From assembly GCF_048593235.1 (NCBI RefSeq), contig NC_133618.1:333454562-333514955 (forward strand): a DNA stretch of 60,394 bases, in the 5' to 3' direction. This document shows positions 1,705-12,210 of this stretch, in pieces. Both the position numbers and the translations under genes were made by a program. The DNA comes from Sminthopsis crassicaudata (taxonomy: Eukaryota). The notes beneath the pieces were generated by a model. It worked only from the letters and a program-made list of their open reading frames with translations, had not been told where the DNA came from and ran no database searches. Every line of letters starts with the position of its first letter. Positions within the stretch are counted from its first letter, which is position 1.

Positions 1705-2309
1705 TGTAAAGATGGCATCATTTTCAAAGCACTGAACTGTAACATGCCCTCCTAGCAGTTACAATTACTAGTCTGCCCTAGGCCCAACAGAATACCTTTG
1801 ACCACTGACCTTTGCAGTGTCAACTCTACCCAGCTCGCCTCCTCTGAGGCCTTCAAAGGTCTTTGGCCACGATCTCTTGAATTTATAGTTTAATAACCGG
1901 TAGCACGCTCAAGAACAGCCACGTGTAATCTTAAAAGCCTTTATTATACCTACTCACATAATACCCTGACTTGATGCTCTGACTTGTCAGTTCCCTAGTG
2001 AACATCTGGTCTGAAGACCCATGTGTTCACTACCAAACTCCTTACCTCTAGGCTACCCATCAGCTTGGCTTGGCTACCCCAGGTTAGGGAGCCAGGTTAA
2101 GAGAGCGACTGCTCTCTGCAGTGGGCTTATAAAGGGCCTGTGAGGTCATACACACAGCCAATCAGCGAGAGAGTCATCACCCATTACGAAGCTATCTCAA
2201 TGTGGCCAAGATCCCACCCACAGGGAAGTCCTAATATCCACAGAGAATACTTCCAGGCCACTCAATCTCCCGTTGCGCTGTGGCACCACCCATTTAAAGG
2301 GCCCTTACA
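1705..2309 (-). mobile_element. ERV LTR (605 bp), probably the 3' LTR of the adjacent ERV2 remnant
   Basis: Inverted termini TGTAA...TTACA. On the minus strand, a TATA-like CTTTATAAG (~2127) precedes AATAAA (~1940). A purine-rich PPT-like AAACAAGAGAATGAAAT abuts the LTR start. ATTT also flanks both ends. Confidence 0.85.
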
Positions 2310-2597
2310 ATTTCATTCTCTTGTTTGCGGGAACCGCACATCTCATCAAGCTAAACTTTTAACACCAGCTATAGTTCACTTGATCCATGAGATGACAGAG
2401 TGTTATGCCCAAGGATGTACAAAGCAGCAGATCAGTAAACAGAAGTATGACAATGAGAACTAGGCTCAACAGTGGCCCAAGTGTTCAACCCATTCATTCA
2501 ACCCAAGTCATACTCAAGGAGATAATAAGCCAAAGAGGTTGGATGCCAATGAGGTAGGATGTCAACACTGAGGTGGTAAGTCAACAAGGTAAAACAT

Positions 2598-2786
2598 CAC
2601 AATTCTAGTTAACAATTAAATATCAGTGAGATAGGTTGTCACAATTCTAGTTACATTTATCACAATTCTAGACCAATTCTAGTTTATCACAATTCTCTAT
2701 TGCACTTTTCACAATTCTAGAGCAATTCTAGCTTATCACAATTCTCTATTGCACTTTTCACAATCCTAGAGCAATTCTAGTTTCAC
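2598..2786. repeat. CACAATTCTAG-based tandem array with a 49-bp higher-order duplication
   Basis: Repeated (c)acaattctag; the unit caattctagtttatcacaattctctattgcacttttcacaattctagag occurs ~2.3 times. Confidence 0.9.
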
Positions 2787-3149
2787 AGGTGCACATAAGC
2801 AAAGTCATGTCTAGTAACATTGTCTCAATAACAACGGCAGGTGGGTGCGTTGGTTTTTCACCCACTAATTTAAAAGCATAGTCCTTCAATAGAAAGCATA
2901 GGGTAAAGCCTCTCTCCAGGCCATCATATGGCAAGTGGCCACAGGAGGAGCAAGCAGGCCCATTGTCCATTTACAGTCTTTATATTGCATATCACCCAAA
3001 ACAGTCCATTTCAGCTGCAACACTGGAACTGTCTGTTGTCTCTGGTGTCATGGTCAGGAGGGACATTGCTGCCAGCAGCATCTGGAGGGCTGCTGACATC
3101 TGGCTGGTCCCTCTGGGCTGTTGTCTGGTCCTTCTCTTGGATCCCCAGG

Positions 3150-4001
3150 TTACAAATGTCTCTGGTGGAGATCAACTCTGCTGCTGGATCTGCACCTAGG
3201 AAGGAATGTACCCCGGGCCCAATTTGGGCCTTTCCAAATGCCATCCAGGCCTTTCCACATCACAGTGGAAACAAAGTTGTCAAAAAGATTAACAAAAGTC
3301 AGACAAAAGTTAATCAGTCTGTCACTTAGCTGTACTTTCTGTGTATGCCTGAAGTTCATTGCTAAGGTAAAATGCAAAGAATTTAAAAATGTAAAACCAA
3401 AATAATTTAAAAGTGTAAAACTGAAATAGATTAAAAGTGTAAAACCAAAATAACTTAAAAATATAAAATAAAAATAACTTAGTAATGTAAAATCAAAATA
3501 CTTTAAAGATGTAAAATCAAAATTTAAAAATTGCAAGCAATCACATATATGTATTGCCACATCTTGCGCACATCCCAAAATTCCTTTCTCTTGTTTAGAA
3601 GAGAAGATCTTGGGGATAGTCTGTGCAGTAATGACTTTACTAATAGGATTATAAGAAATGCCAATGGAATGGGCAAAGTCAAATTCAATGCAAAAACACC
3701 TAAAGGCAAAATATTTGTAAGCCAATCCATAAACTGTCTTAAATGCATGTGAAATTTCTACAATGGAAAAATAGTTGATCACATGTCTAGCTGCTTCTCC
3801 AGATTGGAATGAAGCCATAATGTCCATTGGTCTTAAAACATTAAATTTCAAATCATAAGGGTTTTGTCCTATAGGGAGTATAGGAGAGTGAAAGAAAGAT
3901 AAGCTGTGTAAAGCTTCCTCTTTAGTTATCACAGTTTGCAAATATAAGATTGTAGCAGCCTGATTATAAATGATGTGAAGTTCCACTCTGAAAATGTACA
4001 T
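3150..4001 (-). pseudogene. pol: 283-aa open integrase-derived ORF, predicted catalytically dead, with an internal 8-aa repeat
   Basis: Longest real ORF in the window and colinear with betaretroviral integrase. KTDNG reads KTVYG, the VER glutamate is absent and the zinc-finger CxxC is deleted. Confidence 0.7.
3354..3521 (-). repeat. 24-bp tandem repeat, ~7 copies, in frame within the integrase ORF
   Basis: Encodes FDFTSLKY/FDFTLLSY/FYFIFLSY/FGFTLLIY/FSFTLLNY/FGFTFLNS/LHFTLAMN. Confidence 0.85.
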
Positions 4002-4389
4002 GTAGGGTATATTTATCTGAGCGCTTTCTCACTCACTCTCGAAGTTCTTAAAAGAGCTGATACCTTTTCAATGGTCTTTCATAATAGGGATGGCATTAAG
4101 ATGGCACATTCTCTCAAGGCAAAACTGGGGTGTGGTGTGATTTAGGATTAGAAGCTTTAATTTAACACTTTTTTTCTAATCATCTGTAAAATTGAACTCA
4201 TTTTTTTCATTCTATATTTTTAAAGGGGCATGTCTACAACTCACAATGTGTTCATCAATATACCTTCAAGTCTGAGTCAGTTTTGTGTTGAAGCATCCTC
4301 TCTTCTCCCTCCCATCACCACCTTAAGAACAATACCAGGGAATTGGGGAGATTTTATACATATTGTTTCCATTCAATTCAACTTCTAAT

Positions 4390-8358: not shown

Positions 8359-9086
8359 TGATGAGGTTAGTGGCAGGTTTGAAGTTCAGGGAACCAATGA
8401 AGAGGTTTGGTTGCCCTAGATTCCCCTAGAATTCAGCACAGGAATTTATGAACCCGAAAAGCTAGACTGGTAAAAGAAGTTTATTATTGGCATTGGGAAG
8501 TCAGCCTTTGCTATGAATAAATAGAAAGACTAAATTCCTTAGTGGCAAGGTCCTGGTAAAGTTTCTAGCAGAGAAATTCCAACACAGAGGTATAAAGTCT
8601 TGTTATGGAAATAGGTAAGAAAGAGATAAAAGAGGAGGTAATGCTGAAAAAGAATATCATTTCAGTGGGCAGAGGGTTGCAGCTTATGCCAAGGAGAGAG
8701 AGGTTTCTTGGCCTAGCATGGCATGGCATGGCATGTTAGGTCCTCTGCAAGGACTGAGCCCCAAGTTGGCTCATTTTATAATGCTAGCCTAGGCTAGCAG
8801 CTCTTGATGGGGGCTGGTTATAGTGAGAGCTGGAATCAGAGAAAAATCTTGCAATTGAATGCATCTCTCTGGGTTAATCTTCACCTCAATGGGGAGCCTA
8901 ATCAATAGTGAGTGTTATCAATGGGGGTGGTGTCTGTTTTTCAGGGTAACAGAATGAAGCTATTTATCCTGTTTCCCTTGGGCGAGGTCTTTTACAGAGA
9001 CCAGGATTCAAGGAGACTTTCTCCTTAAAGGAGTTTCAGAGAGAGAGTTTCGGGGTCCTCCTTTCAGTTTCAGGCTCCCCTCATCA
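8359..9086 (-). mobile_element. Solo ERV LTR (728 bp) inserted in L1 ORF1
   Basis: Perfect 8-bp inverted termini TGATGAGG...CCTCATCA; minus-strand TATAAAA (~8775) and AATAAA (~8480); L1 ORF1 continues on both sides. Confidence 0.8.
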
Positions 9087-10339: not shown

Positions 10340-12210
10340 GGAAAGTAGTTATCAAAATCCAGAGTTTCTAAGTCAAAGAAAACAATAACCAAGTAAGGTA
10401 CAAGTACAAAGAAATTATAGTCAGATTCATACAAGATTACACTTCAACTACATAAAGTAAAGAAAAATGTTGAAATATAATATTCCAAAAAAGCAAAAAA
10501 TAAAAGCTTATAACCAAGAACAATTTGCCTTAAAAAGCTGAGCATAATACTAGAGAAAATAGACTTTTTCAACAAAAGAGAGAAATTCCAATTATTTCTA
10601 ATGAATAGACCAACACAGAGCAGAAATTTTGAAATGAAAATAGGAATTGAGAAATACTTAGAAGGGTAAATATATTCAAGTCACTAAAAGGACTAAATGT
10701 TGATGAACTGTTTACATTCCAATAGAGAGAAATGTCTTACTGTCTCTAAAGATTATAGAGGAAAGTTTTTTTAAAAATGCAGGGTTTGGGAGTGATTTTG
10801 TTCTTTTTGTAGGTTTAAGAATGGAAAAGAAATACACTAGAGAATTTTAAAATGAAGAGAATAGAAATTTATTATTTCTCATAATTAGGATTTTTCATGG
10901 AAAAGAACATAAAATATTAGAGGGTATACTTCAGGTAACATTAGTCTCATGAACTTCATTCTTATTTGAACCAGTCAAAGGAGAGATTGAACAATACTTT
11001 TGGTATAGAAATAGATTAAATTGAACAAGGAGAGGAAAGGGATTTTAAAAGGAAGGTAGAGTTGGAGAATACATCGCAAAAAGAAAAATGAACTTCAATT
11101 TCAGAGGGCATATTGTTAGTGAAGATTAAAAGGAAATAGTGTCTAAGACAAGATGAAAAAAGGAAGGGCAATAACATGGTGGGAAAATACTTGATATATG
11201 AAATGCCTTCTCTTTTACTTCCTTCTTTGTAGAGGATAAGGAAGAAGGAAAATAAAAAATAAGCATGCTAGGATGATAAGAATTCACTATTAGCAATCAT
11301 AACCATGATCATTATGAATAGAACTGCATAAAAGAGAAGATAGCAGAATGGATTAGGAAACAATATGTTCACAAGAAACATGAAGATTCACAAAAAAAAA
11401 AAAAAATTGACTTTTTAAAAGTGAAGGGCCACAAAGAAAACTTAAAGGAGGGAAAGGTACCTATATGTGCAAAAATATTTGTGGCAGCCCTTTTTATAGT
11501 GGCTAGAAACTGGAAACTGAATGGATGCCCATCAATTGGAGAATGGCTGAATAATTTATGGTATATGAATGTTATGGAATATTATTGTTCTATAAGAAAC
11601 AATCAGCAAGATAATTTTAGAGAGGCCTGGAGAGATTTACATGAATTGATGTTAAGTGAAATGAGCAGAACCAGGAGATCATTGTACACAGCAACAATAA
11701 GATCATATGACGATTGATTCTGATGGATGTGACTCTTTCCAACAATAAGATGATTGATGCCAGTTTCAATGATCTCGTGATGAAAAGAGTCATCTACACC
11801 CAGAGAAAGGACTGTGGGAACTGAGTATGGATCACAACATAGCATTTTCATTCTTTTTGTTGTTCATTTACATTTTGTTTTCTTATTCATTTTCTTTCCT
11901 TTTTGATCTGATCTTTCTTATGCAGCAAGATAATTGTACAAATATGTTTACATATGTGGGATTTAACATATATGTAGCATGTATTGTATTACTTGTCACC
12001 TAAGAGACAGGAGGGGAGGAAGGAGAGGAAAATTTGGAACACAAAACTATGCAAGGATCAATGATGGAAAATTATCCATGAATATGTTTTGAAGCTAAAA
12101 AGCTTTATTAAAAAAATAAAAATTAAAGTGAAGGGCTAGAGCAGAATGTATTATGCTGCAGAAAAATTCAAAAAATCAAGGGTATTAATCATGGTTTTAT
12201 ACATGAGTAA
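10340..12210 (+). mobile_element. Older L1 (ORF1 end, spacer, ORF2 start) hosting a younger L1 insertion
   Basis: ORF1 C-terminal and EN-start motifs; sequence resumes after the nested insert at aaagtgaagggctagagcagaat. Confidence 0.65.
11430..12124 (+). mobile_element. 5'-truncated young L1 3' end with 12-bp TSD
   Basis: ORF2 C-terminus ICAKIFVAALFIVARNWKLNGCPSIGEWL; poly(A); TSD aaagtgaagggc at 11418-11429 and 12125-12136. Confidence 0.92.

What the first reader, a model, noticed from the sequence alone, without database searches (positions are those of the whole stretch)
3150..4001. Catalytically dead betaretroviral integrase kept as a 283-codon open frame
Seen: this is the only long real ORF in the window. 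Established: it is colinear with ERV2 integrase (GVNPRGL.PN.LWQMDV, GE...HV, KTDNG, H.TGIPYN, LNFLN, W.D...WKGP..WGRG). The CxxC of the HHCC finger and ~25 aa after MD are deleted, KTDNG reads KTVYG, and the VER glutamate is gone. Every indel, including a ~168-bp repeat, preserves the frame and there is no stop. The adjacent RNase H and env parts do carry stops, and the ATG is borrowed from another frame of the RNase H end. Inference: heavy amino-acid erosion with a preserved frame in very AT-rich DNA suggests selection on translation, either in a non-autonomous ERV master (an ETn-like partner of an autonomous ERV2) or after exaptation as a dead-integrase protein. The first ATG context is weak; ATTATGG at 3818 is stronger.
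Basis: partly seen in the sequence, partly recalled or inferred. Interest (0 to 1): 0.7.

Follow-up and report, generated by a model that had tools for sequence, protein, structure and literature searches.

The report
Dead integrase frame reopened by chance
The long reading frame is a decayed retroviral integrase in a front-truncated copy of a retrotransposon with hundreds of copies in this genome, and it is likely open only by chance; the frame that young copies of the family do keep open lies in the part this copy has lost, where it is likely kept for the act of translation and not for its protein.

Summary
The 283-codon minus-strand frame is real and derives from a betaretroviral integrase, but selection on it is not supported. 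It lies in a copy of a non-autonomous ERV2 family (552 and 342 exact hits for two probes) that lacks its 5' LTR and 5' half. Against an older copy, 8 of 10 indels inside the frame are not multiples of three. A private 17-base loss and a 2-base loss offset older shifts. None of 63 full-type paralogues has this frame (median longest stretch 134 codons, maximum 261). Private substitutions are 9 replacement to 2 silent. Younger subfamilies deleted most of the integrase.

Upstream, missing from this copy, the family carries a 340-360-codon, partly gag-pro-derived ORF, open in 41 of 45 young copies. Its 95 shared substitutions make 0 stops (7 and 11 in the other two frames), and 10 of 13 shared indels keep the frame, yet dN/dS is about 1. 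This suggests a need for translation in cis, as reported for mouse IAP 1-delta-1. Expression was not shown. The scan had not noted this family before.

The parts
3150..4001 (-). 283-codon frame (P0001): mosaic of integrase-frame and off-frame stretches plus a 52-codon repeat; catalytically dead
3982..4062 (-). RNase H C-terminal remnant, in another frame, with stops
   Evidence: 64% over 28 aa to a genomic ERV2 pol
4063..4077 (-). family-specific linker; 5' end of this truncated copy lies here
3894..3912 (-). compensating pair A: private 17-base loss at 3912 (junction unique in G000) and a 1-base loss at 3894 shared with 28 of 44 full-type copies
3610..3625 (-). site B: 2-base loss that 27 of 29 nearest paralogues lack; seen in 1 of 44 full-type and 15 of 31 mid-type copies
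3367..3523 (-). 24-bp tandem array, 6.5 copies; 0, 2 and 6 stops in the three sense frames; copy number varies between paralogues
3150..3219 (-). ORF tail read off-frame after a family-level 13-base deletion
2310..3149 (-). stop-riddled 3' internal region (probable env remnant, weak support) with a 49-bp array at 2632-2783
1738..2309 (-). 3' LTR, TG...CA, the only LTR of this family in the window; about 89-93% to the 3' LTRs of 26 paralogues
4078..4330 (.). single-copy host flank in place of the missing 5' LTR, primer site and upstream ORF

Best explanation
The frame is a decayed integrase remnant in a 5'-truncated copy of a high-copy non-autonomous ERV2 retrotransposon, and it is likely open by chance rather than by selection. 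Shown: the copy shares its subfamily's frameshifts, and two further small losses put the reading back in step; a 24-bp array that is stop-free in this frame adds 52 codons; the copy has no 5' LTR; its substitutions are neutral. Inferred: the source element already had a broken integrase frame, this copy inserted in the older wave and then decayed, and it makes no useful protein. Shown for the family: young copies keep an upstream 340-360-codon ORF free of shared stops while its amino acids drift at dN/dS near 1, and the two main large deletions spared that ORF while removing integrase. Inferred: source RNAs must be translated through that ORF to be copied (RNA stability against nonsense-mediated decay, or co-translational access to helper proteins), with Gag and Pol supplied in trans by an autonomous ERV2 not identified here.
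For: Copy number: 39 paralogues at 88-94% among 40 scored of 1351 candidates; 552, 164 and 342 exact probe hits. 0 of 29 nearest and 0 of 90 probe-picked copies have the frame; 2 of 90 reach 250 codons; median longest stretch 134 in 63 full-type copies. The 17-base junction is unique. The window shares a 5-base and a 1-base loss with 25 and 28 of 44 full-type copies and falls in a 95/84 clade with all 25 shifted copies; its end branch (0.029) equals the median. Private changes 2 silent, 9 replacement, omega 1.6, p 0.74 against neutral; window against copies 1.08; against a 78% relative 0.85. Shared integrase indels in-frame 8 of 23, singletons 15 of 64. Integrase loss grows with youth: LTR-LTR identity 93.3% (full, n=11), 98.4% (mid, n=13), 99.8% (short, n=19). 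No 5' half in the window; flank single-copy. An older eroded relative (L192, 44% to intact pol) has 312 stop-free codons here. Upstream ORF.
Against: Treating the five parts of the frame as independent, the chance that a full-type copy is open throughout is about 5e-4 (my product of 40, 18, 43, 5 and 3 of 63). With roughly 200-250 such copies (my estimate) that is about 0.1 expected, so this copy is a lucky tail. Both sites are in phase in 4 of 63 copies against 1.4 expected. The test on 11 private changes has little power. The AU test does not reject placing the window with the older in-phase copies (p 0.23), and the bootstrap had not settled. For the upstream ORF: stops are shared by 8 and 10 mostly old copies at codons 188 and 242, 0 of 38 full-type copies are open from the ATG, and a 4-base shift near the 3' end is carried by 22 of 45 young copies.
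Confidence: 0.85

Rival explanations
1. After insertion this copy was exapted: selection restored and kept the frame for a dead-integrase protein, for example a dominant-negative restriction factor.
For: Two separate losses both restore the integrase phase; the chance estimate is about 0.1 per genome. A strong ATG context exists at 3818.
Against: No 5' LTR. 9 replacement to 2 silent private changes and an ordinary branch length. Zinc finger, catalytic triad and C-terminal end are all damaged. No database protein matches.
Confidence: 0.05
2. The integrase frame was kept open by selection on translation in the family's source elements, and this copy preserves that state.
For: An older subset (11 of 45 full-type rows) is still in phase across the N-terminal part. 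Stops are sparse in the non-repeat part of the frame.
Against: The window carries the later shared shifts, so it does not preserve the old state. Shared integrase indels are in-frame only 8 of 23 times. A stop separates this frame from the upstream ORF. Young subfamilies deleted most of it.
Confidence: 0.07
3. For the upstream ORF: it is open only because the copies are young and in-frame indels arise easily at triplet repeats; no selection on translation.
For: Short copies have LTRs 99.8% alike. Several shared indels are 3 bases long. Old copies share some stops.
Against: Short copies differ from each other by about 3% in the ORF, so source lineages had time to change. 0 stops in 95 shared changes against 7 and 11 in the other frames (p 0.007 at the singleton rate). 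Shared indels just downstream in the same copies are in-frame 2 of 10 times against 4 of 5 in the ORF.
Confidence: 0.25
4. For the upstream ORF: the protein itself (coiled-coil-like and hydrophobic stretches, by eye) has a role in copying the element that tolerates most substitutions.
For: Frame kept; at least 8 copies are annotated as uncharacterised genes by NCBI. For IAP 1-delta-1, two papers describe the fusion protein as acting in cis.
Against: dN/dS 0.92-0.98 between groups and 1.0-1.3 against older relatives; no Pfam, structure or distant homologue.
Confidence: 0.15

Closest known systems
Mouse IAP 1-delta-1 (passages of PMC6466679 and PMC7411935; the primary paper, Saito et al. 2008, was not held, title seen only)
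   Same: Class II non-autonomous ERV with an internal deletion, a long kept ORF and a majority share of new insertions; a cis role of the ORF is reported.
   Different: 1-delta-1 has a recognisable gag-pol fusion. Here the family ORF is eroded past Pfam recognition, only its last third maps to gag-pro, and it drifts at dN/dS near 1. The window copy lacks that ORF.
Mouse ETn/MusD (passages of PMC6466679)
   Same: Non-autonomous class II element that outnumbers its helper.
   Different: ETn is non-coding (recalled); this family keeps a long frame. No LTR-sharing helper was established here.
Cattle ERVK[2-1-LTR] D-type elements (passages of PMC10924933)
   Same: Deleted, defective class II elements dominate recent copying; many source elements and recombination.
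   Different: D-type elements are reported to lack intact gag, pro, pol and env ORFs; the passages read mention no kept derived frame.
Dasyurid MEBrv clades, notably env-less MEBrv 3 (PMC11334065, sections 7 and 10 and passages)
   Same: Betaretrovirus-like ERVs recently copying inside dasyurid cells; a plausible source of helper proteins.
   Different: Those are 7.3-9.5 kb with 281-486 nt LTRs; this family is about 3.5-4.3 kb with 572-nt LTRs and no RT. The words non-autonomous and nonautonomous do not occur in the main text; supplements were not read.
Betaretroviral integrase (PDB 3jca_A)
   Same: Colinear N-terminal, core and C-terminal motifs.
   Different: Zinc finger and D,D(35)E triad lost; parts read off-frame; 52-codon repeat inserted.

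Membership tests
Class II (betaretrovirus-like) ERV | Integrase and RNase H closest to betaretroviral pol | tested here: met
Class II (betaretrovirus-like) ERV | TG...CA LTRs, 6-bp target duplication, tRNA-Lys primer site | tested here: met
   3' LTR in the window; paired LTRs and, by eye, 6-bp duplications in paralogues; primer site in 18 of 20 short copies (the tRNA label is recalled). The window copy lacks the 5' features.
Class II (betaretrovirus-like) ERV | RT phylogeny | not testable with these tools
   the family copies tested have no RT left
Active retroviral integrase | HHCC zinc finger | tested here: not met
   one His kept, second His and CxxC absent
Active retroviral integrase | D,D(35)E triad | tested here: not met
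   first Asp only
Exapted TE-derived gene | Purifying selection after insertion | tested here: not met
   2 silent, 9 replacement; omega 1.6, not different from neutral; low power
Exapted TE-derived gene | Locus-specific transcript and translation | tested here: inconclusive
   only contigs of runs guessed to be RNA were served
Exapted TE-derived gene | Orthologue kept in other species | not testable with these tools
   G000 has no relatives here
IAP 1-delta-1-type non-autonomous ERV (family level) | Internal deletion of pol with recent amplification | tested here: met
IAP 1-delta-1-type non-autonomous ERV (family level) | Long ORF kept open in copying lineages | tested here: met
   upstream ORF open in 22 of 25 and 19 of 20 short copies; 0 stops in 95 shared changes; absent from the window copy
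IAP 1-delta-1-type non-autonomous ERV (family level) | ORF is a gag-pol fusion | tested here: not met
   residues 256-357 match the gag-pro stretch between zinc knuckles and protease (33%, E 7e-10); no pol match; the rest unassigned
IAP 1-delta-1-type non-autonomous ERV (family level) | Translation required in cis; helper required in trans | not testable with these tools
   inferred from frame statistics only
ETn-like partner of an autonomous ERV2 | LTR shared with a coding-competent helper | tested here: inconclusive
   one 86% LTR match beside a long pol frame lacks a primer site and sits too near pol, so it is likely a separate solo LTR; 3 long-pol loci examined

The most novel reading that the evidence does not exclude
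A recently and probably still mobile dasyurid non-autonomous ERV2 family, with over 500 copies, carries a 340-360-codon ORF that selection keeps free of stops and frameshifts while its amino-acid sequence drifts neutrally. That would be a natural, genome-scale record that a defective retroviral RNA must be translated, whatever it encodes, in order to be copied, and a standing source of translated, sequence-free ORFs that annotation already calls genes.
Probability: 0.55. Interest if true: 0.62.

Novelty: new variant of a known kind. Interest (0 to 1): 0.4.

Why it matters
The flagged integrase frame is ordinary: a warning that a long frame in an ERV remnant can be made by offsetting frameshifts and must be judged against paralogues. 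The family result matters more. A cis need for translation in a non-autonomous ERV is known mainly from one mouse element; here hundreds of natural copies give frame-against-sequence statistics, and the idea can be tested with ribosome profiling and NMD knock-down in dunnart cells. It also explains at least 8 NCBI 'uncharacterized' loci as mobile-element copies rather than host genes.

Tried and rejected
Expression: no listed holder is on record as RNA. In contigs of 7 different runs guessed to be RNA, none of the listed pieces bridged the private junction at 3912 or the 4077 boundary (one search showed 32 of about 500 pieces). This is no evidence either way. My first reading that the 2-base loss at 3619 is private was too strong: 552 exact hits carry it, mostly in the short subfamily; it is rare only among full-type copies. 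My first guess that the upstream ORF ends in eroded RT was wrong: it maps to gag-pro. A matrix-like N-terminus (recalled likeness) and a protease-like middle (E 2.2) were not supported. Atlas hits to kinesin-associated coiled coils scored 0.80 or less, the level of shuffled proteins. An 86% LTR match as helper was rejected. The idea that the window keeps more RNase H upstream of 4077 was rejected. A probe held a private base and found only the window. The tree used 7 rows by a script fault and was replaced. Literature searches listed no title on this family; Repbase and Dfam could not be searched, so it may be catalogued there.

Full report
Observation. The minus strand holds a stop-free frame from 4028 to 3150, 283 codons from the ATG at 4001. 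It is the longest of 27 frames of 100 aa or more in the window and twice the longest of 300 shuffles. It matches betaretroviral integrase (3jca_A, E 6e-5) and aligns at 28.6% with residues 611-806 of a genomic ERV2 pol frame used as a ruler. One His and the first Asp remain; the second His, CxxC, about 27 residues after MD, the second Asp and the Glu are lost. The RNase H end lies in another frame with stops. Pfam and the protein collection give nothing for it.

The element. The frame sits in a piece that runs from 4077 to a 572-bp TG...CA LTR at 2309-1738. The genome (G000, 3.24 Gb, 8 contigs) holds hundreds of relatives: 39 at 88-94% among the 40 scored, and 552, 164 and 342 exact hits for three probes. 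Whole copies are about 3.5-4.3 kb, with two LTRs, a primer site, one upstream ORF, an RNase H and integrase remnant and a stop-riddled 3' region; no RT is left. The window copy has no 5' LTR and no upstream ORF, and single-copy DNA abuts it at 4078. NCBI labels a 95%-identical copy of the family's upstream protein as Sminthopsis crassicaudata, so the host is most likely the fat-tailed dunnart.

Why the frame is open. None of the 29 nearest paralogues and none of 90 probe-picked copies has it; 2 of 90 reach 250 codons, and the median longest stretch in 63 full-type copies is 134. Against an older copy, 8 of 10 indels inside the ORF are not multiples of three. The window shares a 5-base loss near 3971 and a 1-base loss near 3894 with 25 and 28 of 44 full-type copies; an older subset and a 78% relative lack both. 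A 17-base loss at 3912, unique in the genome, offsets the 1-base loss. A 2-base loss near 3619, present in 1 of 44 full-type copies, offsets another shift. The last ~20 codons are off-frame after a 13-base deletion shared by 53 of 76 copies. A 24-bp array, stop-free in this frame, supplies 52 codons. In a 47-row tree the window falls in a 95/84 clade with all 25 shifted copies, with a median end branch; the AU test does not reject the other placement (p 0.23), so the shared indels carry that argument.

Selection on this frame. Over 204 codons the window has 11 private substitutions, 2 silent and 9 replacement (omega 1.6, p 0.74 against neutral). Pairwise ratios are 1.08 against paralogues, 0.92 among them and 0.85 against the 78% relative. 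Shared integrase indels are in-frame 8 of 23 times, like singletons (15 of 64). The family shed the integrase as it spread: full-length remnants have LTR pairs 93.3% alike (n=11), copies cut back to 3841 98.4% (n=13), copies cut back to 3642 99.8% (n=19 of 20). Against this reading: my rough product of the part-wise frequencies is 5e-4 a copy, about 0.1 expected among 200-250 full-type copies, and 4 of 63 copies are in phase at both sites against 1.4 expected. The scan, however, picks the longest frame among thousands of ERVs (16,027 reported for this species, PMC11334065, section 7), and an older eroded relative has 312 stop-free codons over the same region.

The frame the family keeps. Just after the 5' LTR the copies carry an ORF of about 358 codons (P0002). 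It is open to 330 codons or more in 22 of 25 and 19 of 20 short copies, 9 of 22 mid copies and 0 of 38 old full-type copies. Residues 256-357 match the gag-pro stretch between the zinc knuckles and the protease (33%, E 7e-10); the rest is unassigned. Youth alone does not explain it: short copies differ by about 3% in the ORF although their LTR pairs are near identical. In 45 short copies, 95 shared substitutions make 0 stops in this frame and 7 and 11 in the other two. In 87 copies, 10 of 13 shared indels keep the frame, against 27 of 101 singletons (p 6.5e-4) and 8 of 23 in the integrase (p 0.035). In the short copies, 4 of 5 shared indels in the ORF are in-frame against 2 of 10 just downstream. 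Yet amino acids are free: omega 0.99 for shared changes, 0.92-0.98 between groups, 1.0-1.3 against older relatives. Against: stops shared by 8 and 10 mostly old copies at codons 188 and 242, a 4-base shift near the 3' end in 22 of 45 young copies, small counts, and non-independent copies.

Mechanism. Shown: frame statistics, anatomy and the order of deletions. Inferred: source RNAs with an early stop are copied less often. The likeliest cause is RNA decay, since unspliced retroviral RNA with a long 3' region is an NMD target (abstract of PMC2925335), and each integrase deletion shortens that region; co-translational access to helper Gag is the other option. Helper proteins must come from an autonomous ERV2; long pol frames exist in G000, but no LTR-sharing partner was established. 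None of this applies to the window copy, which has lost the ORF and the promoter.

Comparison and verdict. The family works like mouse IAP 1-delta-1, whose fusion ORF is reported to act in cis (passages of PMC6466679 and PMC7411935; the primary paper was not held), and it spreads like ETn or cattle D-type ERVK elements (passages of PMC10924933). It is not a gag-pol fusion, and its ORF shows no protein constraint. Searches listed no paper on it; passages of PMC4408412 did not mention ERV2; Repbase, Dfam and supplements were not seen. Earlier notes of this scan do not cover it. The flagged integrase frame alone deserves about 0.1. The family-level result raises the overall interest to 0.4, as a new variant of a known kind.

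Noticed in passing
L050:1570-2646 (-) and paralogues L032-L061, L199-L218: The family's upstream 340-360-codon ORF, absent from the window copy: frame kept, amino acids neutral; 8 cluster members are NCBI 'uncharacterized' loci.
   Followed up: yes
L199-L218: 7 of 19 short copies have identical LTR pairs (one measured on 167 bases only), so the family was copying very recently.
   Followed up: partly
L039-L041: Three family copies in a head-to-tail array at 3232-bp spacing with identical ORFs.
   Followed up: no
window 2632-2783: 49-bp tandem array (3.1 copies) that is expanded in many short copies.
   Followed up: no
window about 8359-9086: Probable solo LTR of another family, with 8-bp inverted ends, inserted in L1-like sequence (read by eye).
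   Followed up: no
window 11322-11717 (+) and 33010-33462 (-): L1 ORF2 C-terminal remnants (label recalled from the translations).
   Followed up: no
L186-L197, L129: Older, less deleted relatives that keep parts of gag, protease and RT; they form a graded series of decay towards this family.
   Followed up: partly
L037/L064: A copy in which the whole upstream ORF is missing and the LTR joins the integrase remnant at window-equivalent 3754; seen once in the samples.
   Followed up: no
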